The position numbers and the translations under genes were made by a program. DNA of 32,000 nt. Source: Desulfotalea psychrophila LSv54 (lineage in GTDB: Bacteria > Desulfobacterota > Desulfobulbia > Desulfobulbales > Desulfocapsaceae). Below, piece by piece: positions 10,744 through 29,403 of the stretch (positions are counted from its first letter, which is position 1; each line of letters opens with the position of its first letter). The DNA lies in the NCBI RefSeq assembly GCF_000025945.1, contig NC_006138.1:1410001-1442000 (forward strand), given 5' to 3'. The notes below the pieces were generated by a model, which saw only the letters and a list, made by a program, of their open reading frames with translations, ran no database searches and was not told where the DNA came from.

Positions 10744-12171
10744 ATGCTTGGTTCTTTAAGAGGTGCAGTGGATGCAGCAATTGGTGTCGCAAATGGTTTG
10801 TTATGGGGTAAGTTGCTGATCTATGTCCTCGTCCTGACTGGTTTATATTTCACTCTCCGCCTTGGCTGTATTCAGTTACGTCTCTTTTTTCATGGGGTTC
10901 AACTTGTTCGTGCTGGTCGTGAAAAGGTAAATGGTATCTCCTCTTTTCAGGTCTTCTGTACCTCCATGGCTGCCCGGGTAGGTACGGGCAATATGGCAGG
11001 TGTTGCCGTTGCTATTACCGTCGGGGGGGCAGGTTCTATTTTCTGGATGTGGCTCATTGCCCTGTTGGGTATGGCAACAGCCTTTGTCGAATCCACCCTT
11101 GCCCAGCTGTACAAGATAAGAGGTGTGGACGGTACCTATCGTGGTGGCCCTGCCTACTATATGGAACAGGGGCTTGGCATGCGTTGGATGGGCATTCTCT
11201 TCTCTATCCTCCTTATCATTGCCTTTGGTTTTGCCTTTAATTCAGTGCAGGCAAATACCATCACCGACGCCCTCAATAATGCCTTTGGCTTTAATAAGAC
11301 CATTGTTGGTATTATTATTGTGGCCTTTACCGGATATATCATCATGGGTGGCCTGAGGAAGGTTGCCCGGGTCTCTGAGATTATTGTCCCCTTTATGGCC
11401 GTGCTCTACCTGCTTATTGCCCTGACCGTGGTTGTCCTTAATATAGAAAAAATACCAACAGTACTGGTCCTTATCTTCGATAGCGCCTTTGGCATAAGAG
11501 AGGCCACCGGTGGTATGATGGGCGCCCTGATGGCCGGTGTTGCCCGGGGACTCTTCTCCAATGAGGCGGGTATGGGAAGTGCTGCCAATGTTGCCGCCTC
11601 TGCCACCCCAAATCCCCATCATCCGGCCTCTCAAGGATTTGTCCAGATGATAGGTGTCTTTGTCGATACCCTTGTTATCTGTACTGCCTCAGCGGCAATT
11701 ATCATGCTCTCCGGTGTACTTGATGCCCCGGCCGGTGAGAGGGGGATCGGTCTCTTGCAACTGGCCTTGACCAATGAGATAGGCCCTTGGGCGACATACT
11801 TTCTCGCCTTTGCCATTATCATGTTTTGCTTTAGCTCCATCATTGCCAACTATAGCTATGCAGAAACCAATATTATGTTTCTCACCAAGAGCAGGCGGGT
11901 CATGGTGACCTTTCGCTTTGCCGTGTTAGCCATTGTTATGACCGGTTCCGTGGCTTCTCTGCAGACCGTGTGGAACTTTGCCGATGTCTCCATGGGTCTG
12001 ATGGCCCTGGTTAATATCGCCGCCATTCTTATGCTCTCCGGCGTGGCCTTTGCCGTGATTAAGGATTATGAGGGGCAGATGAAGGCGGGCAAAAAACCAG
12101 ATTTTGATGCCAATAAGTTCCCTAAAATTCATGCCCAGCTCTCCTGCAATACCTGGAAGAGGGAGGAGTAG
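10744..12171 (+). CDS. sodium:alanine symporter family (AGCS) transporter, tandem copy 1
   Basis: 475 aa, about 11 TM helices. AGCS signature FQVFCTSMAARVGTGNMAGVAVAITVGGAGSIFWMWLIALLGMATAFVES and GLFSNEAGMGSAANVAASA. GGGGAGG SD before ATG 10744. Confidence 0.9.
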   Translation: MLGSLRGAVDAAIGVANGLLWGKLLIYVLVLTGLYFTLRLGCIQLRLFFHGVQLVRAGREKVNGISSFQVFCTSMAARVGTGNMAGVAVAITVGGAGSIFWMWLIALLGMATAFVESTLAQLYKIRGVDGTYRGGPAYYMEQGLGMRWMGILFSILLIIAFGFAFNSVQANTITDALNNAFGFNKTIVGIIIVAFTGYIIMGGLRKVARVSEIIVPFMAVLYLLIALTVVVLNIEKIPTVLVLIFDSAFGIREATGGMMGALMAGVARGLFSNEAGMGSAANVAASATPNPHHPASQGFVQMIGVFVDTLVICTASAAIIMLSGVLDAPAGERGIGLLQLALTNEIGPWATYFLAFAIIMFCFSSIIANYSYAETNIMFLTKSRRVMVTFRFAVLAIVMTGSVASLQTVWNFADVSMGLMALVNIAAILMLSGVAFAVIKDYEGQMKAGKKPDFDANKFPKIHAQLSCNTWKREE

Positions 12172-12529: not shown

Positions 12530-13948
12530 ATGTTTGATTCTTTCCAAGCTGTAGTTGCTACTGTACATAATTTTCTATGGGGTCACTTGCTGACCTATGT
12601 TCTGATTCTAGCCGGTCTCTATTTCACCTTCCGTCTTGGCTTTATCCAGTTACGTCTCTTTTTCCATGGCCTAAAGGTTCTACGTCTTGGTCGTGAAAGG
12701 GTAGAGGGTATTTCTTCTTTTCAGGTTTTCTGTACATCTATGGCTGCCCGGATAGGTACGGGCAATATAGCGGGTATTGCCCTTGCCATTACCGTTGGTG
12801 GTCCGGGTGCCATCTTTTGGATGTGGATCATGGCCATTTTTGGGATGGCAACATCCTTTGTCGAATCCACCCTGGCCCAGTTGTACAAGGTAAGAGGGGT
12901 GGAGGATGACGTTTATCGTGGTGGTCCCGCCTACTATATGGAACAGGGGCTCGGCAGGCGTTGGATGGGCATTCTTTTCTCTATTCTTCTCATCATCACC
13001 TATGGTCTTGCCTTTAACTCTGTCCAGGCAAATACCATCACCGATGCCCTTGATCATGCCTTCGGTTTTGACAGGACTATTGTGGGTATTACTGTTGTGG
13101 TCATTACCGGATATATCATCATGGGTGGCCTGAAGAAGGTTGCTCGGGCAGCTGAGGTCATTGTCCCCTTCATGGCCGGACTCTATCTGCTTCTGGCCCT
13201 GGTGGTGGTGGTTCTTAACATAGAAAAAATACCCGCAGTATTGGCCCTTATCTTTGACAGTGCCTTTGGCCTGCAAGCGGCCAGCGGTGGTATGTTGGGT
13301 GCGCTAACAGTGGGTGTTTCCCGGGGACTCTTCTCCAATGAGGCGGGTATGGGAAGTGCTGCCAATGTCGCTGGATCTGCCACCCCAAATCCTCCTCATC
13401 CGGCCTCCCAGGGTTTTGTCCAGATGATTGGTGTCTTTGCCGATACCTTCATCATCTGTACAGCTTCGGCGGCAATTGTTCTGCTCTCCGGGGTAATTGA
13501 TACAAAAACCAGTGAGACGGGAATAGGCCTGGTGCAACTGGCCCTGACCAATGAAATGGGCCATTGGTCAATCTATTTTCTCACCTTTACCATTATCCTC
13601 TTCTGCTATAGTTCTATCATTGCCAATTACGGTTATGCAGAGTCCAATGTTCTCTTTCTCACCAGGAGTAGGGGCGCCGTTCAGGCCCTTCGCCTCTCTG
13701 TTCTGGCCATTGTCATGATCGGTTCCATCTCCCCTTTCCAGGCAGTGTGGAGTCTTACCGATATTTCCATGGGCCTGATGGCCCTGGTGAACATCATTGC
13801 TATTTTTATGCTCTCGGGTGTGGCCGTGACGGTGATTAGGGATTATGAAAGGCAGATGAAGGCGGGTAAGCTACCGGAATTTGATGCCGGTAAGTTCCCT
13901 GAAATTCATGCCCAGCTCTCCTGTAATACCTGGAAGGGGGAGGAGTAG
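12530..13948 (+). CDS. sodium:alanine symporter family (AGCS) transporter, tandem copy 2
   Basis: 472 aa, roughly three quarters identical to copy 1 by eye (25 mismatches in a 105-residue stretch I counted). Same AGCS signatures and the same C-terminus HAQLSCNTWK(R/G)EE. Confidence 0.9.
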   Translation: MFDSFQAVVATVHNFLWGHLLTYVLILAGLYFTFRLGFIQLRLFFHGLKVLRLGRERVEGISSFQVFCTSMAARIGTGNIAGIALAITVGGPGAIFWMWIMAIFGMATSFVESTLAQLYKVRGVEDDVYRGGPAYYMEQGLGRRWMGILFSILLIITYGLAFNSVQANTITDALDHAFGFDRTIVGITVVVITGYIIMGGLKKVARAAEVIVPFMAGLYLLLALVVVVLNIEKIPAVLALIFDSAFGLQAASGGMLGALTVGVSRGLFSNEAGMGSAANVAGSATPNPPHPASQGFVQMIGVFADTFIICTASAAIVLLSGVIDTKTSETGIGLVQLALTNEMGHWSIYFLTFTIILFCYSSIIANYGYAESNVLFLTRSRGAVQALRLSVLAIVMIGSISPFQAVWSLTDISMGLMALVNIIAIFMLSGVAVTVIRDYERQMKAGKLPEFDAGKFPEIHAQLSCNTWKGEE

Positions 13949-14718: not shown

Positions 14719-16731
14719 ATGAGAGCAAAAATTAATACAAGATCATTATATTTCAAACTTGTCGCAGGTGGAATTTTAGCAGTACTCTTGCCTCTGCTCA
14801 TTGTCGGTTTTTGGGTAGTACATAAGACAAATGAGACTCTTTTTGAGATAAGTAGAGAAGTTCTACAGAACGAGGCAAAACAATTAAGTGGTTATGTTGA
14901 AATATCACTGGATCTTCAACGGGAAGTGGCCGCTGCCTTCACCACGGATCTATTGACGCTTGAAGTAATTGAGAAGGTTAATAGGGTTGGTGTTGCAAGC
15001 GCAGGAGATGATATTGCCGTGCTACGCAGGGCGATGAAAGATAAGTATGCTCTTCTTGATAATAGTCGTTATTTGGGTGTTTTTGTAACCGATAAAAAGG
15101 GTCTTCTTATCACCGGTGAGCTGGCCAGTGGGAAAGAGTACAGGGGCAGCAATATTGCCAGTCGTGGCTACTTTCAAAGGGTAAAGAGCAGTGGCGAGGT
15201 TGTGGTTGGAGAGATAGCAAGATCAAAGAGTACCGGCAAGATTATCTATGTGGTCTGTGCTCCCATTGTCTCTGGTGATCATCGCTTTCAAGGTGTTATC
15301 GGTCTTGCCGTCAGTGCAAAATTCTTGCTGGATAAATTTGCAGAGGTCGCACCGGGTGCCACCGGATACTCCTCCATGGTGAATAGGAGAGGTGTGGTCA
15401 ATATCCATCCAAATAAAAAACTTATCTTGCAGCATGATTTAAGCCGTGATGATGGTTTGGAAGAGTTAAGTAAAGCCATGCTGGCCGGTGAAACGGATGT
15501 GATCAGTTACAGTTATAAGGGGGATGCTAAGGTGGCAGGTTTTGCTCCTGTTCCCAGTCAGAAATGGAGTGTTATTGTAACCCAGGAACAGGATGACTTT
15601 TTAGGGGCAGCCCATGAAATCAGAGATTCAGTGAGCTTTATTACCCTGATTTCTCTTATAGCTGTAGCCGTTGTGGTGTTTTTTGCTTCACAAACTCTGG
15701 TACGACCAATGCAGAGGGTGGTGGAGGGCCTAAAGGATATTGCCCAGGGCGAGGGCGATTTAACCATGCGTCTTCAGGTGACTTCAAAGGATGAGGTAGG
15801 AGATATTGCCCTGTGGTTTAATGTTTTTATCGAGAAGTTACAGCAAATTATAATTAGGCTTTCGGAAAATAGTACTCCGGTGGCTGTCAGTGCTGGTCAA
15901 CTTTCGGTTATTGCCCGTGAGCTTTTGGTTAATGCAGAGGATACATCCACCCGCTCTGATAATGTCGCTGCGGCGGCAGAGGAGATGAGTGCAAATCTCA
16001 ATACTGTTTCTGCTGCCATGGAGCAGTCTTCAGCTAATATAGGTATGGTGGCATCTGCATCCGAGGAGATGACTGCAACTATTGGTGAAATCGCAGAAAG
16101 TGCGGGGAAGGCTCATGCTGTTTCAAGTTTGGCTGTTGAACAATCACAAAGTGCATCTGAAAAAATGGATGAGTTGAGTAGTGCAGCAGAAAAAATTGGT
16201 AAGGTCACGGAGACTATAACTGAGATATCAGAGCAGACAAATCTCTTGGCATTGAATGCCACCATTGAGGCCGCAAGGGCTGGTGAGTCTGGCAAGGGTT
16301 TTGCTGTGGTAGCCAATGAAATTAAAGAGTTGGCTAAGCAAACAGCCGAGGCAACATCTGATATTAAAAATGTTATTGGCAATGTGCAGCATACTGCTAA
16401 AATGGCAGAGGGTGAAATTGAGCAAATTACCAGGGTAATAGAGGATGTAAATGAAATCGTAGCCACGATAGCAGCGACCGTTGAGGAACAGTCGGTGACC
16501 ACCCGAGAGATAAGCGCAAATATTGTTCAGGCAAGTGCCGGTATTCAGGAGGTGAATACAAACGTAAGTGAGAGCTCCGTTGTTTCAGGTGAAATGACAA
16601 AGGATATTAGCGGTGTTTCCCAGGTGTCCCGGACCATAGCTACCAAGGGGCGAGATGTTCAGCAAAGTGCCGATGACCTACTGGGATTGTCGGCTGAACT
16701 GGCTAAGATTGTTAAGCTGTTTAAAGTTTAG
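14719..16731 (+). CDS. methyl-accepting chemotaxis protein with periplasmic Cache-type sensor and HAMP domain
   Basis: 670 aa. TM1 [21 protein letters not shown], a ~270-aa periplasmic region, TM2 [21 protein letters not shown] ([25 protein letters not shown]), and the invariant signalling hairpin [35 protein letters not shown]. Confidence 0.9.
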
Positions 16732-16835: not shown

Positions 16836-18266
16836 TTACTCTTCTATCTTCCAAAGATGCGCGCCCTCTTCCAGGGGCTTGGTGTAGATGAGGAAGGCGA
16901 CGAGGACCGCTATGGCAATAACTACGCCAGCGATATTTGACAGGGTAGAGTCCAGCTCAAAACCGATCTTGGCCTGGAGGATGAATGCTGCATCAACCGC
17001 GGTCATAAAGGTGGCAGGGATGGTGCATATCCAGTGAAGTTTTCTCTTTTTGACCAGATAGATGGCTGCCGTCCAGAGCATCATCATGGAGAGCATCTGG
17101 TTGGACCAACCAAAGTAGCGCCATACGGTGGTGAACTCGACATTACTGATGGCAAAGGCCACGGCAAAGAGGGGGATGGCAATTATCAGTCGCAGGCCAG
17201 GTCGGTTCTGCTTGATATTAACGATCTCTGCAATAATCAAACGGGTGGATCGAAAGGCCGTATCACCACTGGAGATAGGCAGGATGATAACGCCCATGAT
17301 TGCCAGAAAACCACCGACGGGGCCCAGCAGGGTGTTACATGCTTCATTGACCACTGCGGCAGGGGAGCCGGTAGCAATTACAGCACTGAGTGCCTCGGGG
17401 GTCTGGTAGAAGGAGAGACCAATGGTAACCCAGACAAGGGCGATAATACCCTCCATGATCATTGAACCATAGAAGACGGATCGGCCGTGGGACTCATTTT
17501 GTACGCAACGTGCCATCAGCGGTGATTGGGTGGAGTGAAAACCACTGATCGCACCGCAGGACAGGGTGATGAAGAGAAGAGGCCAGATAGGCTTGTCTGC
17601 CGGGTGAGTATTGGTGAAAAAATCAAGGTTTGGCAGAATCTCATAGCCGTGGAAGATCAAACCGCCAATAACGCCAAAGGTCATGAATATGAGGAGGGCG
17701 CCGAAAAATGGATAGAGACGACCAATGATCTTGTCGATGGGGAGGATGGTGGCGATGAAATAGTAAAAGAAGATACAGCCGATCAGTATCTGAACATTGA
17801 CTCCCGTCAGCTGGTGGAGAAGCTTTGCCGGTCCCAGGATGAAAACAACACCAACAAGGAGGAGGAGGACGATGGAAAATATGCGCAGGGTCTGTCGTGC
17901 CGGCATTCCCATAATGTCACCAACTACCTCAGGGATAGACTTTCCGCCGCTACGCAGAGAAAGCATACCACTAAAATAGTCGTGGACAGCGCCGCCAAAG
18001 ATACAGCCAATAACTACCCAGATGAGGGCAGATGGGCCGTATAGAGCACCGAGGATTGGTCCGAATATGGGGCCAAGTCCCGCAATATCAAGGAGCTGGA
18101 TGAAGAACACCTTCCAGGTCGGCATGGCGATATAGTCAACGCCCTCTTCCTTGGTGCTACAGGGGGTTGCCCGGTTGCGGTCAATGCCAAAGATCTTTTC
18201 AACAAAGACCCCGTAGGTGAAGTAGCCCAAGATCAACAGGCCAACACAGGTAAAAAAGAAAAGCAT
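16836..18266 (-). CDS. cstA: carbon starvation protein CstA family transporter (short form)
   Basis: 476 aa, polytopic. CstA blocks FIQLLDIAGLGPIFGPILGALYGP, GAVHDYFSGMLS, SCGAISGFHSTQSPLMAR. Shorter than the ~700-aa E. coli CstA/BtsT type. GGGAGGAAA SD before the ATG. Confidence 0.88.
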   Translation of the reverse strand: MLFFFTCVGLLILGYFTYGVFVEKIFGIDRNRATPCSTKEEGVDYIAMPTWKVFFIQLLDIAGLGPIFGPILGALYGPSALIWVVIGCIFGGAVHDYFSGMLSLRSGGKSIPEVVGDIMGMPARQTLRIFSIVLLLLVGVVFILGPAKLLHQLTGVNVQILIGCIFFYYFIATILPIDKIIGRLYPFFGALLIFMTFGVIGGLIFHGYEILPNLDFFTNTHPADKPIWPLLFITLSCGAISGFHSTQSPLMARCVQNESHGRSVFYGSMIMEGIIALVWVTIGLSFYQTPEALSAVIATGSPAAVVNEACNTLLGPVGGFLAIMGVIILPISSGDTAFRSTRLIIAEIVNIKQNRPGLRLIIAIPLFAVAFAISNVEFTTVWRYFGWSNQMLSMMMLWTAAIYLVKKRKLHWICTIPATFMTAVDAAFILQAKIGFELDSTLSNIAGVVIAIAVLVAFLIYTKPLEEGAHLWKIEE

Positions 18267-24784: not shown

Positions 24785-24884
24785 GACTTTCTGCAAAATT
24801 TTATGCAGGCCTTGCAGCCGGGGTTGCTCTTTATTGAAAAGCCCCATTTTTTAAGCGACCCAGATAATTGTTTTTTGTAGGATG

Positions 24885-24913
24885 AACCCACCATTTTTAT
24901 GGTGGGTTTTTTT
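24885..24913 (+). terminator. rho-independent terminator after leuB
   Basis: AACCCACCAT-TTTT-ATGGTGGGTT: 10-bp perfect stem, running into a T-tract (T7). Confidence 0.88.
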
Positions 24914-25077
24914 ATGCCTAGCGGATTTTATTCATTATTTTTGCCGAGAAACATATTTGGACAGATGATCATATACTTGCTAAGGTTAAATAAATTAATA
25001 GACCTTGTCCGGATCTATTATTTCTGTTGAAGAAATGTGTTTTAGATTCTTTACTTAAAAAAAAAACCCCTCTTTTT

Positions 25078-27723
25078 ATGAAAAAAGAAAGCATTGAAAA
25101 ACATCTACAGTGTTCTGTCCTCTTTCAAGATCTTTCTCCAGAGGAGATAGGTCGGTGCAGTGAGATGGCGATGGTGGAAATTGTGCCGATGGGGGAGTAT
25201 GTCTATCGACAGGGAGGGCAGACTGATCTGCTCTATCTTGTGGCAGTTGGTGAGGCAGAGCTTGTCTTTGAGTTTGATACCAGTAGTGTCAGCGCCGTTG
25301 GTCGGGTTGGACCTGGTGGCCATTTTGGTGAGACGGCCCTTCTTACCGGAAAACCTCATGCCGTGGCCGTTCGAGCCCTCTTTGATCTTGTCCTTCTCAT
25401 TTTTAAAGGCTCGTTTTTTAAGGATTTGCTTGAAAGAAATCAGTGTGTGCGCAGACGGGTAGACCTTTTTTTGGCAGAACGGTTGCGGGTGGCCTTTGCC
25501 GATCAGGCAGATATGTCACGAAAACAGATTGGCAGGCAGGATATTACCTTCGCCAGTGAGATGGTTTTGTTCAGGCAGAGAGGGACTGCCAATATTGATT
25601 TAGAGAAGGCCAGCGATCTTAACTCCGGCAAGAATGAGTATGTTGCCAGAACCAGTCGTCGAACCCATGCGGAAATAGATAGAATTGCCAGTAATCAGGA
25701 GCCGTTTTTTTTAAATGGGGAGGAGGGGACGGGCAGGACAATCATTGCCAAACAGATCCATCTGCAGTCGATTTGTGCCGATGCTCCCTATCGAGAGATT
25801 GATCTACGTGAATACCCCTCGGCGCTTCTTTTAGAAAAAAAGCTCTTTGGAGCAGCTCAGGATACCTATCCTTTTTTTCAAACTCAACAGGCCGGTTTCT
25901 TTGAGAAGACCTGTGGGGGCACCCTGGTTTTTTGTCATGTGGAGTTGCTTCCCATAAGTCTTCAGGAAAAGCTTCTTAAGGTGATTGCCAGCAGCGTCTT
26001 TACCCATCTTGATTCAAAGCAGCAGATAGCCATGCAGTCACGACTTGTCTTTATCAGTGACTTCAGCCTTACCTATTTACGGAATTCTGGCAAAATTATT
26101 CCAGAGTTTCTTGCCATTTTAGAAAGGCAAAAATTTACCGTTCCCGCCGTTCGTGAGCATAAAAAAGATTTACCCCAGCTGATAGACCACTATTTGAAGC
26201 GTTTTAGCAGGGAGTATGGCAAGGAGGTCACAGCTGTCAGCCCTGAGACCCTTGGGGTCTTGATGAACTATGATTGGCCGGGTAACCTCACTGAGCTGTC
26301 AACGGTAATACGACGGGCGGTGATGTTGGCTGCAACGGCCGAGGTTCATGCCGAGGAAATTTTACTGGGTCTGCCCAAGTCAGAGGGTAAGTGGGAGTTC
26401 AATCTTCTTCGTTTTCCCTGGGTGCGTAGCTTTATAACAAGCAAGAGGTTTCCCCAGGTACCACAGATAGTTATTGGTGGCGTTTTGCTTCTGGCTGTCT
26501 TTGTCCTCTTTTTTGGTCCACGCTCGGCCGAGGCCAATCTTGGACTGACTATTAGCTGGTCTATTGGCTGGCCTCTGATGTTCTTCTCCTTTTTCTTTCT
26601 GGCCAGAATCTGGTGCAGTGTTTGTTCCCTTGCCATGCCAGGTATGCTTTTGCAGAATATATTTCCCTCCAAGAGAAAGACACCGGCTTTTATCAAGAAA
26701 AACTCCGGTTGGCTTATGGCCATACTCTGTGTTCTGGTTTTTTGGGTGGAAATAGTCTGGGATGCCTATGAAAACCCCCTGCTTACTGGCATGATTATTC
26801 TTACTATCACCTTTGGTTCCATTATTTTTAGCCTTCTCTATTCAAGAAGGACATGGTGTCGCTATCTCTGTCCCTTAGGTGCGGTTAATGCCATCTTTGC
26901 CATGCCCTCTATTTTGGAACTGCGCTCAAATAAAGATGTCTGCCTGAATAAGTGTCAGGATCATGCCTGTTATGCAGGGGGAGAAGAGAGTGATGGCTGC
27001 CCCATGTTTCGTCATCCTTATCTTGTTGATAATAATAGAGATTGTATCATCTGTGGGGAGTGTGTAAAAAATTGTAATAATAGTGCCGTACAACTCAATT
27101 TGCGGATTGCCCCTCAGGAGCTCTGGAGTCTGCAGACGCCTCGTCTTGCCGATAGTTTTCTTATAGTTGCCCTCGGTGCCATCTTTTTTCCCTTTGCTCT
27201 GCACACTGATTTTGTGACAAAGGCCCGGGCTGTTCTCGGGCAGCTGGAGTTTTTTTGGGGAGTGAATATTCCCTATGGCCTTGGTGCGACCCTTATTTTT
27301 TTTCTTTTGATCCTCTTCGCCTTTAGTCTCTACTATGGAATGGCTACTGCTCAGGCAAGGTTTGCCGGGGGGGGGAGAGAGAAGATTGCTGCCCTGTTAG
27401 GTTACGGTTTTATCCCTGTCGTTTTAGGCGCTTATCTTGCTATTCATCTTGAAATATTTGTCGTCGGTGCAGGCAGGCTTATCCCTCAGCTAGAGGCCAT
27501 GATGGGTTGGGCTGTATCCTATGAAAACTGGCAGCTCATGAACGATGACAGTACCTTGGTATTACAGGTCATATCAATATTTGGTGGTCTCTTTGCCTCC
27601 ATGTACGCCATCTATCGTATTATTGAAAGATTACTGGAGCCCATCTCCATCAGCTCTCGTGCCCTTGTTCTGCCCTACTCTTTTTTGCTTCTCCTTACAA
27701 TTAGTTATCTCTCTATGCTTTAA
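25078..27723 (+). CDS. fusion protein: cyclic-nucleotide-binding domain + degenerate sigma54-interaction-type AAA+ domain + polytopic membrane domain with NapH-like CX3CP and ferredoxin-type Cys clusters
   Basis: One uninterrupted frame 25027(TTG)..27723; the first ATG is at 25078. cNMP barrel: GEYVYRQGGQTDLLYLVAVGEAEL, GHFGETALLTGKPHAVAVRA. AAA+ region: GEEGTGRT, LFGAAQDTYPFF, GGTLVFCHVE, YDWPGNLTEL. About 9 TM helices follow, carrying RTWCRYLCPLG, CLNKCQDHAC..GCP and CIICGECVKNC. No HTH is present. Start uncertain (no SD before either candidate). Confidence 0.8.
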   Translation: MKKESIEKHLQCSVLFQDLSPEEIGRCSEMAMVEIVPMGEYVYRQGGQTDLLYLVAVGEAELVFEFDTSSVSAVGRVGPGGHFGETALLTGKPHAVAVRALFDLVLLIFKGSFFKDLLERNQCVRRRVDLFLAERLRVAFADQADMSRKQIGRQDITFASEMVLFRQRGTANIDLEKASDLNSGKNEYVARTSRRTHAEIDRIASNQEPFFLNGEEGTGRTIIAKQIHLQSICADAPYREIDLREYPSALLLEKKLFGAAQDTYPFFQTQQAGFFEKTCGGTLVFCHVELLPISLQEKLLKVIASSVFTHLDSKQQIAMQSRLVFISDFSLTYLRNSGKIIPEFLAILERQKFTVPAVREHKKDLPQLIDHYLKRFSREYGKEVTAVSPETLGVLMNYDWPGNLTELSTVIRRAVMLAATAEVHAEEILLGLPKSEGKWEFNLLRFPWVRSFITSKRFPQVPQIVIGGVLLLAVFVLFFGPRSAEANLGLTISWSIGWPLMFFSFFFLARIWCSVCSLAMPGMLLQNIFPSKRKTPAFIKKNSGWLMAILCVLVFWVEIVWDAYENPLLTGMIILTITFGSIIFSLLYSRRTWCRYLCPLGAVNAIFAMPSILELRSNKDVCLNKCQDHACYAGGEESDGCPMFRHPYLVDNNRDCIICGECVKNCNNSAVQLNLRIAPQELWSLQTPRLADSFLIVALGAIFFPFALHTDFVTKARAVLGQLEFFWGVNIPYGLGATLIFFLLILFAFSLYYGMATAQARFAGGGREKIAALLGYGFIPVVLGAYLAIHLEIFVVGAGRLIPQLEAMMGWAVSYENWQLMNDDSTLVLQVISIFGGLFASMYAIYRIIERLLEPISISSRALVLPYSFLLLLTISYLSML

Positions 27724-27874
27724 GGCCTTTCCTCACGTTCAATGTCCTTTTTCAGGGCAGAGTAAAAAGATTTTACAAAAATGAATAGATCATAATAAAC
27801 AAAGAGTTAACTGATATTTCTTGCAGTAAATATTTTTAGGAATAATTTTTTTTGTTTATTACTTCATTTCGGGC

Positions 27875-27891
27875 GATATATATGATATATC
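27875..27891. promoter_or_regulatory. inverted repeat GATATAT-ATG-ATATATC in the AT-rich region upstream of the third AGCS gene
   Basis: Perfect 7-bp arms with a 3-nt spacer, 160 nt upstream of ATG 28051. Function unknown. Confidence 0.25.
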
Positions 27892-28050
27892 TAATTAATA
27901 TCTTTAATCTTGTCAGGAAAAATCTCTTTTTCACGTAACTAATATATTATAAGTATTATTGCATTAAAAATTGTTGGTATGGCTTAGGCTGTTTTTCTAA
28001 GCCTTTCTAGGGGCAGACAACCCCTCATCAAACAAGAGAGAGGAGAACGA

Positions 28051-29403
28051 ATGGATTTCATTGCAACGCTAGACGTCTTTATTGGGAAAATCAACGCCTT
28101 TGCTTGGGGACCACCAATGCTCATCTTGCTTGTTGGTACAGGTTGTTGGTTGACCTATAAGCTTCGTGGTTTACAGTTTAGAAAACTTGGTCATGCCCTG
28201 TGGCTTGCCTTTGTAAAACGTAAGGCTGATGATGATGAACCTGGTGATATTTCTCACTTTGCGGCACTGATGACGGCCCTTTCAGCAACGGTGGGTACAG
28301 GTAATATTGCCGGAGTGGCAACAGCAATCGCCATTGGCGGACCAGGAGCCCTCTTCTGGATGTGGATGACTGGTCTTGTCGGTATGGCAACCAAGTATTC
28401 CGAGGCTATCCTGGCTGTAAAGTATCGGGTTAAAGATGAAAAGGGTGAGATGTGTGGTGGCCCGATGTACTATATTGCCCGGGGTCTGAATATGCCCTGG
28501 CTTGGAGTTGTTTTTGCCGTATTTGCCTCAATTGCCGCCTTCGGTATTGGTAATATGGTTCAGTCAAACTCGGTGGCCGATGCCATGGAGTCCACCTTTG
28601 GCATTGAGCCAATGATCACCGGCCTTGTTCTTATGGCATTTACCGCTGCAGTTATCCTCGGTGGTATCAAGTCTATTGGTCGGGTAACCAGTATTATCGT
28701 TCCTGCCATGATTGCCTTCTATACCCTTGGCGCCCTTTATATCATTTTTAGCCATATCAGCATGGTGCCTGCAGCCTTTGTTACCATCGTAAAGTTAGCC
28801 TTTAACCCAACTGCCGCAACCGGTGGCTTTGCCGGTGCAACTATCATGCTTGCCATTCGTATGGGTGTTGCCCGTGGTGTTTTCTCCAATGAATCTGGTT
28901 TGGGCTCGGCTCCTATCGCAGCGGCTGCGGCGAAAACCAAGAGTCCTGCAACCCAGGCACTTATCTCCATGACCCAGACCTTTATTGATACCATCATTGT
29001 CTGTACCATGACGGGCTTGGTTATTGTTATCTCAGGTCTCTGGAAAACTGGTCTCACCGGCGCGGAGTTGACGGCTAAGTCCTTTGAGGCAACTATGCCC
29101 GGTGGTGCCTATGTGGTTACCATTGGTATTATTTTCTTTGCTTACTCCACCATGCTCGGCTGGTGTTACTACGGTGAGAAGTCCATTGAGTATCTCTTTG
29201 GTACCAAGGTCATTTTGCCATATCGTTTGGTCTTCGTCTGTTTTGTTGGTCTTGGGGCGGTGGCAAAGCTCAGCTTTGTCTGGAATCTCTCCGATACTCT
29301 CAATGGTCTGATGGCTATTCCAAACTTAATTGGTCTTCTTCTCCTTACCCCTGTTATTGTCTCTGAAACTAAGAAGTATTTTGGTAAAGACAAGGAGCTG
29401 TAG
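28051..29403 (+). CDS. sodium:alanine symporter family (AGCS) transporter, third and divergent copy
   Basis: 450 aa. AGCS signature [42 protein letters not shown] and [26 protein letters not shown] at 28041-28045, 5 nt before the ATG. Confidence 0.9.

What the first reader, a model, noticed from the sequence alone, without database searches (positions are those of the whole stretch)
25027..27723. Membrane-anchored pseudo-enhancer-binding protein: cNMP sensor + catalytically degenerate sigma54-type AAA+ + NapH-like polyferredoxin membrane domain in one ORF
A single uninterrupted 898-codon frame joins three modules that I do not know to occur together. (i) Residues ~27-145 form a Crp-type cyclic-nucleotide-binding barrel. 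(ii) Residues ~215-435 are clearly homologous to the AAA+ module of sigma54 activators and end with the family-typical YDWPGN-x-x-EL. The functional motifs are nevertheless substituted. Walker A GESGTGKE becomes GEEGTGRT (Lys to Arg, nt 25717-25740). ELFGHEKGAFTGA becomes KLFGAAQDTYPFFQTQ, so the GAFTGA sigma54-contact loop is missing (nt ~25846-25896). Walker B GGTLFLDE becomes GGTLVFCHVE (nt ~25915-25944). PPLRER becomes PAVREH, and WPGNVREL becomes WPGNLTEL. (iii) In place of the usual C-terminal Fis-type HTH there are about 9 TM helices (residues ~478-898). They carry RTWCRYLCPLG (nt 26851-26880), the CX3CP motif of NapH/MauN/NosR-type membrane Fe-S proteins. They also carry a variant ARIWCSVCS and two ferredoxin-like clusters, CLNKCQDHAC..GCP and CIICGECVKNC (nt 27043-27075). 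The protein therefore looks like a cyclic-nucleotide sensor coupled, through an apparently ATPase-dead EBP scaffold with no DNA-binding domain, to a membrane redox module. The gene is monocistronic: a strong terminator lies at 24885-24913 and a 327-nt AT-rich spacer follows it. Context therefore gives no functional hint.
Basis: partly seen in the sequence, partly recalled or inferred. Interest (0 to 1): 0.7.

Follow-up and report, generated by a model that had tools for sequence, protein, structure and literature searches.

The report
Membrane iron-sulfur protein with dead EBP ATPase
This Desulfotalea gene encodes a real, widely conserved but unstudied membrane protein in which a cyclic-nucleotide-type sensor fold and a catalytically dead copy of the sigma-54-activator motor are fused to a nine-helix iron-sulfur membrane module; it is annotated as a transcription factor but almost certainly is not one.

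Summary
One intact gene joins a CNB (cNMP-binding) fold, a sigma54-type AAA+ core with its lid, and a 9-TM NapH-like polyferredoxin. The true start is ATG 25078, giving 881 aa; the 898-codon frame is the maximal ORF. No HTH is present.

The window is Desulfotalea psychrophila. The protein is annotated 'sigma 54-interacting transcriptional regulator'.

- Walker A Lys->Arg is specific to the Desulfotalea-like clade.
- Walker B is DE->CH with no insertion.
- Both arginine fingers are also lost.
- The key CNB phosphate-binding Arg is His here, so cNMP binding is uncertain.
- The architecture is not rare: 436 clusters at 50% identity, in many anaerobic phyla.
- It is also widespread in cyanobacteria, which lack sigma54.

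Across the family the catalytic Walker B Glu, the Arg fingers and GAFTGA are missing, while 12 membrane-domain cysteines are invariant. The membrane module also occurs alone. N-terminal inputs vary (cNMP, GAF, FHA, REC).

Best reading (confidence about 0.4): a sigma54-independent one-component device. A sensor fold acts through a hydrolysis-dead AAA+ scaffold to control a membrane Fe-S electron-transfer module.

I found no functional study and no solved structural relative of the membrane part. I file it as a new variant of known kinds, of moderately high interest.

The parts
25078..27723 (+). Gene for the 881-aa CNB / pseudo-AAA+ / polyferredoxin protein (D. psychrophila CAG36014.1 / WP_011188526.1). 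The maximal ORF starts at TTG 25027.
24884..24919 (+). Intrinsic terminator of the upstream leuB gene (11-bp stem, T run). It separates the target from the hisD-rsmG-leuB block.
25183..25440 (+). Cyclic-nucleotide-binding (CNB) fold, Pfam PF00027.
   Evidence: PKA-R and CRP matches
25324..25377 (+). Phosphate-binding cassette FGETALLTGKPHAVAVRA. The Glu is kept; the key Arg is replaced by His (codon 25357-25359).
25498..25647 (+). Poorly conserved linker between CNB and AAA+, predicted flexible (27% mean identity, pLDDT <50).
25657..26091 (+). Sigma54-type AAA+ core (PF00158), catalytically degenerate.
25717..25740 (+). Walker A GEEGTGRT (Lys->Arg; clade-specific).
25840..25887 (+). L1 loop region KLFGAAQDTYPFFQTQ. 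GAFTGA is replaced by a different motif that is conserved within orthologs (x-F/Y-P-F).
25915..25944 (+). Walker B GGTLVFCHVE (Asp-Glu -> Cys-His).
26089..26121 (+). Arginine-finger region GKIIPEFLAIL; both Arg are lost.
26152..26361 (+). AAA+ lid (PF25601) with YDWPGNLTEL and the conserved sensor-II Arg (VIRRAVM).
26365..26412 (+). Juxtamembrane connector LLGLPKSEGKWEFNLLR, conserved among orthologs.
26458..26835 (+). TM helices 1-4, the NapH-like part. WCSVC (26602-26628) lies at the cytoplasmic end of TM2.
26836..27144 (+). Cytoplasmic Fe-S loop. It holds WCRYLCPLG (26848-26880), CLNKCQDHAC..GCP (26941-27003) and CIICGECVKNC (27043-27075). With WCSVC these give 12 Cys invariant in 46 diverse homologs.
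27145..27720 (+). TM helices 5-9. This extra five-helix bundle is absent from NapH and always accompanies the module, including in stand-alone versions.
27724..28050 (.). 327-nt, 70% A+T spacer before an Na+:alanine symporter gene. No terminator-like site was found in it.

Best explanation
The protein is a sigma54-independent, one-component membrane redox device.

Working part. The C-terminal 9-TM polyferredoxin is a NapH-type four-helix core plus a five-helix extension. Twelve invariant cysteines on the cytoplasmic face are predicted to hold two ferredoxin-type [4Fe-4S] clusters plus a CxxC/CX3CP site. I infer that it moves electrons between cytoplasmic partners and the quinone pool or a periplasmic or metal substrate.

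Scaffold. The EBP-derived AAA+ module has lost ATP hydrolysis and the sigma54-contact loop. In most members it keeps the P-loop glycines, the Walker A Lys and the sensor-II Arg. I infer that it acts as a nucleotide-binding oligomerisation or scaffold domain.

Input. The N-terminal input fold is CNB here; elsewhere it is GAF, FHA or REC. I infer that the scaffold relays the state of this input to the membrane module and switches its assembly or activity.

Shown: the architecture, the motif losses, the conservation pattern, the predicted topology, the existence of stand-alone membrane modules, the variable inputs, and the occurrence in a phylum without sigma54.

Inferred: Fe-S binding, electron transfer, the direction of signalling, oligomerisation, and the identity of the ligand. 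cNMP binding is doubtful for this particular protein.
For: 1. All canonical catalytic or sigma54-contact features are missing in the window protein. Among 134 representatives of the family, the Walker B Glu position is Asn in 71, His in 29 and Glu in only 7. The Arg fingers are absent, and GAFTGA is replaced or deleted.

2. The AAA+ module is nonetheless under constraint. Among orthologs the core is 55% identical and the lid 70%. The P-loop glycines and sensor-II Arg are kept; Arg is present in 117 of 134.

3. Apart from a few Gly and one Trp, the only invariant residues across 46 members at 22-64% identity are 12 Cys of the membrane module. In cyanobacteria RRFWCRYLCPIGG occurs in 117 of 119 sequences.

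4. The same 9-TM Fe-S unit exists as a stand-alone 447-485-aa protein covering 92-98% of the domain. It sits in non-signalling contexts: a quinone-biosynthesis/DoxX cluster and MgtE-protease operons. The module therefore has a function of its own.

5. N-terminal inputs are interchangeable (cNMP; cNMP+GAF; FHA+cNMP; FHA+GAF; HisKA+REC), while the AAA+ and membrane parts are constant. This is the usual logic of input followed by output.

6. The full three-module protein is widespread in cultured cyanobacteria. Cyanobacteria have no sigma54 (PMC3162934; PMC2853384).

7. Most members are monocistronic with variable neighbours, as expected for a self-contained device.

8. No HTH is present.

9. Topology prediction puts the Fe-S loop and the sensor modules on the same, cytoplasmic side.
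Against: - There is no experimental datum for any member.
- The substrate and partners of the membrane module are unknown, and its fold has no solved relative.
- The CNB cassette lacks the key Arg here and is degenerate in whole clades. The 'input' may therefore be structural or bind something else.
- Neighbours of distant members are mostly signalling genes: CHASE2-cyclase, RsbU/W/V-like genes, Usp, and HK/RR/EBP genes. That fits a sensor role at least as well as an effector role.
- The full-length AF2 model gives no information on domain packing (pTM 0.45).
Confidence: 0.4

Rival explanations
1. The protein is a membrane redox or energy sensor. The polyferredoxin reports the redox state of the quinone pool or membrane. 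The CNB fold and the nucleotide-binding but non-hydrolysing AAA+ add second-messenger and ATP/ADP inputs. The output is a protein-protein interaction made by the AAA+ surface, for example with partner-switching phosphatases or kinases or with two-component proteins. No enzymatic output domain is needed.
For: - Neighbours of distant members are signalling genes. In two Bacillota there is a tight operon with a HAMP-SpoIIE phosphatase, an RsbW-like kinase and a STAS protein. In anammox bacteria a CHASE2-cyclase lies immediately upstream. Usp pairs, REC, and HK-RR-EBP genes occur in Desulfobulbales and Desulfomonile.
- The L1 loop is not simply deleted in the orthologs. It carries a different conserved motif (F/Y-P-F in 24 of 25), which suggests a new partner.
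- The Walker B Glu->Asn/His state resembles classical ATP-trap mutants, that is, binding without turnover (the comparison rests on established AAA+ knowledge).
Against: - A protein with up to three sensor modules and no recognisable output would be unusual.
- The stand-alone membrane module sits in non-signalling operons.
- No neighbour is conserved across clades, so no universal partner is visible.
- The L1 loop is deleted in cyanobacteria.
Confidence: 0.3
2. The protein is a membrane-tethered decoy or anti-activator of the sigma54 system. The dead AAA+ co-assembles with genuine EBPs, or binds sigma54, and sequesters them at the membrane in response to redox or cNMP signals.
For: - The AAA+ is clearly EBP-derived (115 bits to NtrC1).
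- In three Desulfomonile loci a genuine REC-AAA+-HTH EBP with its HK and RR lies directly upstream.
- Most host phyla possess sigma54 and many EBPs (general knowledge; PMC3162934).
Against: - The same architecture is widespread in cyanobacteria, which lack both sigma54 and EBPs.
- GAFTGA is absent, so direct sigma54 contact is unlikely.
- EBP adjacency is seen in one genus only.
- This model gives no reason for 12 invariant cysteines and a 9-TM domain if the membrane part were merely an anchor.
Confidence: 0.1
3. The protein is a conventional sigma54-dependent transcriptional activator, as annotated, acting from the membrane without DNA binding (like the HTH-less activators FlgR and CtcC).
For: The Pfam and NCBIfam hits to EBP families, and the database annotation.
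Against: - The Walker A Lys (in this protein), Walker B Asp-Glu, both Arg fingers and GAFTGA are all substituted.
- Every NCBIfam EBP score is far below its cut-off, for example 127 against 714.
- Homologs occur in cyanobacteria, which have no sigma54.
- There is no sigma54-type promoter pattern or enhancer logic nearby.
Confidence: 0.02
4. The gene is a decaying gene, or a fusion artefact of assembly or annotation.
For: The degenerate motifs. One paralog in a long-read MAG appears split.
Against: - The gene lies in a finished genome.
- More than 400 full-length homologs on independent contigs share the same architecture.
- All domains are strongly conserved.
- The apparent split in L007 is a frameshift: the family sequence continues in another frame.
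Confidence: 0.01

Closest known systems
Bacterial enhancer-binding proteins (NtrC1, PspF, ZraR, FlrC; Pfam PF00158 + PF25601)
   Same: The AAA+ core and lid are homologous: 115 bits to Aquifex NtrC1, with an alignment covering Walker A through sensor II. The order input-AAA+-C-terminal module is the same. YDWPGN..EL and the sensor-II Arg are kept.
   Different: The Walker A Lys (this clade), the Walker B Asp-Glu, both Arg fingers, the sensor-I Asn and GAFTGA are substituted. The HTH is replaced by a 9-TM Fe-S domain. Homologs occur in sigma54-free cyanobacteria.
EBP-type regulators that work without sigma54 (TyrR, VpsR, Rhodobacter NtrC). That they act with sigma70 is my own knowledge; TyrR and VpsR appear among the hits.
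   Same: They are precedents for an EBP-derived AAA+ that has lost or altered GAFTGA and no longer remodels sigma54.
   Different: Those proteins keep an HTH, bind DNA, are soluble, and keep nucleotide-binding motifs. This family is an integral membrane protein with no DNA-binding domain.
NapH/MauN quinol-dehydrogenase-type polyferredoxins (TIGR02163, PF12801)
   Same: The TM region carries Cys motifs at the cytoplasmic helix ends (CX3CP), followed by two ferredoxin-type Cys clusters. The profile match covers positions 70-253 of 255. The predicted cytoplasmic orientation is the same (the NapH topology is from the literature, my own knowledge).
   Different: The score is far below the family cut-off (47 against 213 bits). 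The first motif is CxxC(S/P), not CX3CP. There are five extra TM helices. There is no NapG/NapC partner or nap operon. The module is fused to cytosolic signalling domains.
CcoG/FixG cupric reductase and NosR/NirI/RdhC membrane polyferredoxins (my own knowledge of the families; weak NosR hit)
   Same: They belong to the same Fer4_5 superfamily of membrane Fe-S proteins that carry electrons to periplasmic or metal substrates. NosR and NirI were also once annotated as 'regulators'.
   Different: There is no FixG_C Ig-like domain, no periplasmic FMN-binding domain, and no cco, nos or rdh context. The C-terminal helix bundle is different.
CNB-domain-gated membrane proteins (MloK1/SthK channels, CNB-fused transporters); the CNB 'AAA_Atpase' family in the census of Kannan et al. 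2007 (PMC2246266)
   Same: A cytoplasmic CNB fold is fused to a membrane effector. The census already noted a prokaryotic CNB family fused to AAA ATPases, with a variable cassette Arg and TM regions, and assigned no function.
   Different: Here an entire pseudo-AAA+ module lies between the CNB fold and the membrane part. The membrane part is an Fe-S protein, not a channel. I could not verify that the census family is the same as this one.

Membership tests
Bacterial enhancer-binding protein (sigma54 activator) | Homology to the sigma54-interaction AAA+ domain (PF00158) and lid | tested here: met
   PF00158 at 81.6 bits (cut-off 20.2); PF25601 at 69.7 bits; NtrC1 at 115 bits
Bacterial enhancer-binding protein (sigma54 activator) | Walker A GxxxxGK(T/S/E) with the catalytic Lys | tested here: not met
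   GEEGTGRT in the window. Lys is kept in 19 of 25 orthologs and 105 of 134 representatives, but the preceding Gly is Glu in 34 of 134
Bacterial enhancer-binding protein (sigma54 activator) | Walker B hhhhDE with the catalytic Glu | tested here: not met
   Cys-His in the window. At the Glu position: Asn 71, His 29, Glu 7 of 134
Bacterial enhancer-binding protein (sigma54 activator) | GAFTGA L1 loop that contacts sigma54 | tested here: not met
   DTYPFF in the window; GAFSFA-like or GALPFA-like, or deleted, elsewhere
Bacterial enhancer-binding protein (sigma54 activator) | Trans-acting arginine fingers (FREDLYYRL) | tested here: not met
   IIPEFLAIL in the window. No Arg in 25 of 25 orthologs; Arg at the second position in 8 of 134
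Bacterial enhancer-binding protein (sigma54 activator) | C-terminal Fis-type HTH (usual, not universal) | tested here: not met
   No HTH_8 or other DNA-binding family at E<=1; the lid is followed by TM1
Bacterial enhancer-binding protein (sigma54 activator) | ATP hydrolysis and sigma54-dependent activation | not testable with these tools
   Needs biochemistry. Occurrence in sigma54-free cyanobacteria argues against it
CNB (cyclic-nucleotide-binding) domain, PF00027 | Beta-barrel fold match above the Pfam cut-off | tested here: met
   52.4 bits against 27.5; PKA-R and CRP hits; AF2 pLDDT about 83 with strands
CNB (cyclic-nucleotide-binding) domain, PF00027 | Phosphate-binding cassette Glu and Arg that bind the ribose-phosphate | tested here: inconclusive
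   Glu is present. The Arg is His in the window and in 10 of 25 orthologs, and Arg in 15 of 25. Ligand binding itself was not tested
NapH/MauN family (TIGR02163) | Score at or above the curated family cut-off | tested here: not met
   44.9-47 bits against a cut-off of 213
NapH/MauN family (TIGR02163) | Four TM helices with two CX3CP motifs plus two C-terminal 4Cys ferredoxin motifs | tested here: inconclusive
   One CX3CP (WCRYLCPLG) and one CxxC (WCSVC) are present, and both ferredoxin-type motifs are present. There are nine TM helices, not four
NapH/MauN family (TIGR02163) | Operon with napG/napC/napAB or mau genes | tested here: not met
   Neighbours are leuB and an alanine symporter; no nap or mau genes are in the window ORFs scanned (10744-31726) or in the related loci whose neighbours were scanned
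CcoG/FixG | C-terminal periplasmic Ig-like FixG_C domain and a ccoGHIS context | tested here: not met
   No such Pfam hit; the C-terminus is a 5-TM bundle
NosR/NirI/RdhC | N-terminal periplasmic FMN-binding domain and a nos/nir/rdh context | tested here: not met
   The N-terminus is CNB plus AAA+. The NosR model scores 17.8 bits against a cut-off of 1000

The most novel reading that the evidence does not exclude
The EBP AAA+ ring has been exapted as a non-hydrolysing, ligand-controlled clutch. It would assemble or gate an oligomeric membrane Fe-S electron conduit. That would make it a previously unrecognised class of second-messenger- or energy-state-gated redox module. The class is present in sulfate reducers, anammox bacteria, Nitrospirota, Acidobacteriota, Bacillota and most cyanobacterial lineages, and is currently mis-annotated everywhere as a sigma54 transcription factor.
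Probability: 0.3. Interest if true: 0.8.

Novelty: new variant of a known kind. Interest (0 to 1): 0.6.

Why it matters
1. Thousands of database entries carry a probably wrong annotation ('sigma 54-interacting transcriptional regulator', 'nitrogen assimilation regulatory protein'). Some are in cyanobacteria, which have no sigma54. Counts of EBPs per genome and inferred sigma54 regulons are inflated accordingly.

2. The family is a natural example of a pseudo-AAA+ derived from the EBP clade. Its lesions copy the classical laboratory trap mutations (Walker B Glu->Asn/His, loss of the Arg fingers). It is therefore a test case for what an AAA+ ring does when it can bind but not hydrolyse nucleotide.

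3. It links signal-sensing folds directly to a NapH-type membrane Fe-S module. No member of that superfamily has a solved membrane structure, and its members (NapH, NosR, CcoG) are central to anaerobic respiration and metal handling. If the module is gated post-translationally, this would be a new level of control of membrane electron flow in environmentally important anaerobes and phototrophs.

Tried and rejected
- Structure search. Foldseek of a good AF2 model of the membrane domain (pLDDT 86) against the PDB gave no match at E<=1e-3; the best TM-score was 0.16. A profile search against PDB sequences matched only the 20-30-residue CxxCxxCxxxCP stretch of ferredoxin-type subunits.
- Full-length AF2 model (pTM 0.45). 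It gave no usable inter-domain geometry.
- Literature. Eight full-text searches covered architecture terms, accession numbers, and cyanobacterial cNMP/AAA terms. None found a functional study. The Desulfovibrio sigma54 regulome paper was irrelevant. Only open-access papers are searchable, so absence is not proof.
- 'Split' orthologs. P0126 and P0129 seemed to lack the CNB domain, and in P0126's locus (L007) a separate 111-aa CNB ORF lies upstream. Reading the L007 DNA shows a frameshift in a long-read MAG, with the family sequence continuing in another frame. P0129's locus was not examined. This is not evidence for separable genes.
- DoxX as a conserved partner. It lies next to the stand-alone module in Clostridium and next to one cyanobacterial member. 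It is absent from four other cyanobacterial loci. I rejected it as a general partner.
- The prs-like upstream gene. It is present in the orthologous loci but absent from the window, with no remnant by tblastn. A functional link is untested.
- Sigma54 promoter scan of the window. Matches were no more frequent than chance, and none lies upstream of the gene.
- The maximal 898-codon frame as the true protein. I rejected it in favour of ATG 25078.

Full report
THE GENE. The frame 25027..27723 (+) is open for 898 codons from a TTG. All 24 aligned full-length homologs start at the position of its Met18 with MK(K/R)E. The GenBank entry is 881 aa: Desulfotalea psychrophila CAG36014.1 / WP_011188526.1 / UniProt Q6ANR0, named 'sigma 54-interacting transcriptional regulator' or 'related to nitrogen assimilation regulatory protein'. 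The gene is therefore 25078..27723. Residue numbers below refer to the 881-aa form unless stated otherwise.

An 11-bp-stem terminator at 24884-24909 ends the upstream leuB gene. Downstream, a 327-nt, 70% A+T spacer precedes an Na+:alanine symporter gene. No sigma54-type promoter lies upstream.

DOMAINS. Pfam gives four hits above their gathering cut-offs (898 numbering):
- cNMP_binding, residues 53-138.
- Sigma54_activat, residues 211-355.
- AAA_lid_14, residues 376-445.
- Fer4_5, residues 588-625.

No DNA-binding family appears even at E<=1. NCBIfam matches about twenty EBP equivalogs at roughly 54-127 bits, far below their cut-offs of 440-1000. It also matches NapH/MauN at 45-47 bits against a cut-off of 213.

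Hydropathy with the positive-inside rule predicts nine TM helices: 461-479, 500-518, 543-561, 568-586, 690-708, 733-751, 775-796, 827-849 and 863-881. The 100-residue Cys-rich loop between TM4 and TM5 falls on the cytoplasmic side, the same side as the sensor modules. An AF2 model of residues 440-881 (pLDDT 86, pTM 0.87) shows the same nine helices.

AAA+ MOTIFS. I used the HMMER alignment to Aquifex NtrC1.
- Walker A GESGVGKE becomes GEEGTGRT.
- The L1 loop GAFTGA becomes DTYPFF.
- Walker B Asp-Glu becomes Cys-His.
- The arginine-finger segment FREDLYYRL becomes IIPEFLAIL, so both Arg are lost.
- The sensor-I Asn becomes Asp.
- YDWPGN..EL and the sensor-II Arg (VIRRAVM) are kept.

FAMILY-LEVEL PICTURE. 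Twenty-four orthologs at 52-65% identity come from Desulfotalea, Desulforhopalus, Desulfopila, Desulfosediminicola, Desulfocastanea and Desulfoprunum. They show which lesions are general:
- GAFTGA is absent in all. It is replaced by a conserved x-(F/Y)-P-F motif.
- The Walker B Glu position is His in 24 of 25.
- No Arg occurs at either finger position.
- The Walker A Lys->Arg change occurs only in six Desulfotalea-like sequences. The other 19 keep GTGK.

An exhaustive HMMER scan of 1.84 billion representative proteins finds 436 clusters at E<=1e-30. Many are about 30% identical over the full length. In 134 representatives:
- The Walker B Glu position is Asn (71), His (29) or Glu (7).
- The Walker A Lys is kept in 105.
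- The preceding Gly is Glu in 34 (GTEK).
- The sensor-II Arg is kept in 117.

Across 46 members at 22-64% identity, the invariant columns are a few glycines, one Trp and twelve cysteines of the membrane module: C513, C516, C594, C598, C622, C626, C631, C641, C656, C659, C662 and C666.

Mean identity to the window protein among its orthologs, by domain:
- Fe-S loop: 76%
- Lid: 70%
- Juxtamembrane connector: 69%
- TM1-4: 68%
- AAA+ core: 55%
- CNB: 49%
- TM5-9: 46%
- Linker: 27%

The cytosolic modules are therefore constrained, not decaying. The membrane Fe-S module is the most conserved part.

THE CNB FOLD. The phosphate-binding cassette reads FGETALLTGKPHAVAVRA. The ribose-contacting Glu is present, but the phosphate-contacting Arg is His. 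It is His in 10 of 25 orthologs and Arg in 15 of 25. It is Cys in anammox members, even though a CHASE2-class III cyclase gene lies immediately upstream of them. In 119 cyanobacterial members the cassette has neither Glu nor Arg. 'Cyclic-nucleotide sensor' is therefore plausible for part of the family and uncertain for this protein. A 2007 census of CNB domains listed a prokaryotic CNB family fused to AAA ATPases, with a variable cassette Arg and TM regions, and assigned no function (PMC2246266). I could not verify that this is the same family.

DISTRIBUTION AND ARCHITECTURE VARIANTS. Hosts include Desulfobulbales, Desulfomonile, Syntrophaceae, Desulfuromonadales, Nitrospirota, the anammox Scalindua and Brocadiaceae, Armatimonadota, Acidobacteriota, Bacillota (Desulfosporosinus, Desulfotruncus), Dehalococcoidia and Myxococcota.

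Longer members carry other inputs before the same AAA+-membrane unit: cNMP+GAF, FHA+cNMP, FHA+GAF, HisKA+REC and AIM24+cNMP.

The 9-TM Fe-S unit also occurs alone, as 447-485-aa proteins about 30% identical over 92-98% of the domain. Hosts are Clostridium, Paradesulfitobacterium, Chloroflexota and Desulfobulbia.

The full three-module protein (about 840 aa) is widespread in cultured cyanobacteria. Examples are Crocosphaera subtropica ATCC 51142, Gloeothece verrucosa, Limnospira, Moorena producens, Cyanobacterium stanieri and Geminocystis herdmanii. There the P-loop is GEPGLEK, the L1 loop is deleted and Walker B is Asn-Asn, while RRFWCRYLCPIGG is present in 117 of 119 sequences. Cyanobacteria have no sigma54 and no EBPs (PMC3162934; PMC2853384). 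In that phylum, at least, the family cannot act through sigma54.

CONTEXT. In orthologous loci the order is hemE / radical-SAM (minus strand), then hisD-rsmG-leuB, a divergent ribose-phosphate diphosphokinase, and the target. Downstream genes vary. The window lacks the prs-like gene and holds no remnant of it.

Elsewhere the neighbours are as follows:
- A paralog group in Desulfobulbales is preceded by two Usp genes or a REC gene.
- Anammox members are preceded by a CHASE2-cyclase, with a gap of 3 nt or an overlap of 34 nt.
- Desulfomonile members follow an HK, an RR and a genuine REC-AAA+-HTH EBP.
- Two Bacillota members head a tight operon with a HAMP-SpoIIE phosphatase, an RsbW-like kinase and a STAS protein.
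- Four cyanobacterial loci share no neighbour.
- Stand-alone modules sit in a polyprenyl-synthase/DoxX/YtkA/UbiA/UbiE cluster in Clostridium estertheticum, and in MgtE-HtrA-like-protease operons in Desulfobulbia.

One apparent 'split' paralog is a frameshift in a long-read MAG.

INTERPRETATION. The protein is not a sigma54 activator. I favour a self-contained membrane device (confidence about 0.4). In this reading the constant AAA+-membrane unit is the machine, and the Fe-S membrane module is the effector, because it exists and is conserved on its own. The hydrolysis-dead AAA+ would be a nucleotide-binding or oligomerising scaffold, and the interchangeable N-terminal fold would be the input.

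The main rival (about 0.3) reverses the direction. The Fe-S module senses membrane redox state, and the AAA+ surface signals to partner proteins. The signalling-rich neighbourhoods and the conserved replacement of the L1 motif speak for this.

A sigma54/EBP decoy role (about 0.1) fits the Desulfomonile context but not the cyanobacteria. A conventional activator role and a pseudogene or artefact are effectively excluded.

Every mechanistic step beyond architecture, conservation and predicted topology is inference.

KNOWN RELATIVES AND NOVELTY. The parts belong to known superfamilies: the EBP AAA+, CNB, and NapH/NosR/CcoG-type Fer4_5 polyferredoxins. The protein fails the defining tests of each functional family (see the membership table). 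The membrane fold has no solved relative. I found no functional study, but only open-access text could be searched.

I classify it as a new variant of known kinds, and as a widespread, mis-annotated and uncharacterised family rather than a one-off oddity of this genome. Interest is 0.6. A specialist would be surprised by an EBP-derived pseudo-ATPase fused to a membrane polyferredoxin and by its prevalence in cyanobacteria. No mechanism is established yet.

Noticed in passing
L001, L002, L003, L009, L012-L017, L023 (gene directly upstream of the target); window 24785-25077 for comparison: Orthologous loci carry a divergent ribose-phosphate diphosphokinase (about 305 aa; TIGR01251 at 163 bits, below the equivalog cut-offs) 3-124 nt upstream of the target. 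The D. psychrophila window lacks it and holds no remnant. A functional link to the nucleotide-sensing protein is possible but untested.
   Followed up: partly
window 10744-12171, 12530-13948, 28051-29403: Three paralogous Na+:alanine symporter (AgcS family) genes lie within 32 kb, two of them in tandem. A dCache-HAMP-MCP chemoreceptor gene (14719-16731) and a cstA gene (16836-18266, minus strand) are also nearby.
   Followed up: no
L074, L075, L077, L078, L080, L081 (stand-alone polyferredoxin loci): In Desulfobulbia and other Thermodesulfobacteriota the stand-alone 9-TM polyferredoxin is the last gene of a tight MgtE / HtrA-like serine protease / polyferredoxin operon (gaps of 0-73 nt between the protease gene and the polyferredoxin gene, and 2-171 nt between mgtE and the protease gene where mgtE is present). 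A CNNM/CorC-type gene is divergent. This is an unexplained link to Mg2+ or metal transport.
   Followed up: partly
L004 5007-10642: In Clostridium estertheticum the stand-alone module sits in a cluster of polyprenyl synthase, DoxX, YtkA, [polyferredoxin], UbiA prenyltransferase, Rce1-like protease and UbiE methyltransferase genes. This suggests a quinone-related role. A CopA/CsoR/HMA copper locus lies 4 kb downstream.
   Followed up: partly
L007 6424-7001: A paralog in a 2.4-Mb long-read MAG contig appears as a separate 111-aa CNB ORF plus a 692-aa AAA+-membrane ORF. The DNA shows the family sequence continuing in another frame. It is a frameshift, either a sequencing error or a pseudogene, not a natural split. 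An HDOD-GGDEF gene follows.
   Followed up: yes
L035, L046, L047 (anammox Scalindua and Brocadiaceae): A CHASE2-class III nucleotidyl cyclase gene immediately precedes the family member in L035 and L047 (gap of 3 nt or overlap of 34 nt; in L046 it is the nearest upstream gene). Yet the CNB cassette there has Cys in place of the phosphate-binding Arg (EPCCAT).
   Followed up: partly
L050 and L057 (Bacillota; Desulfotruncus alcoholivorax): The family member is the first gene of an operon with a HAMP-SpoIIE (RsbU-like) phosphatase, an RsbW-like HATPase_c_2 kinase and an RsbV-like STAS protein. It may be an input to a partner-switching cascade.
   Followed up: partly
stand-alone homologs in alignment A3 (region aligned to window 27400-27465): The stand-alone modules have a His-rich TM7 consensus (IPLDLAGHxAHNLFHLLAEGK). 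Only one of these His survives in the window protein (AIHLEIF). This may be a heme or metal site that is lost or altered in the fused family.
   Followed up: no
window 25027-25077: The 17-codon N-terminal extension from TTG 25027 is carried in one public database entry (898 aa, MetaClust UPI0002F156BC). No homolog supports it.
   Followed up: yes
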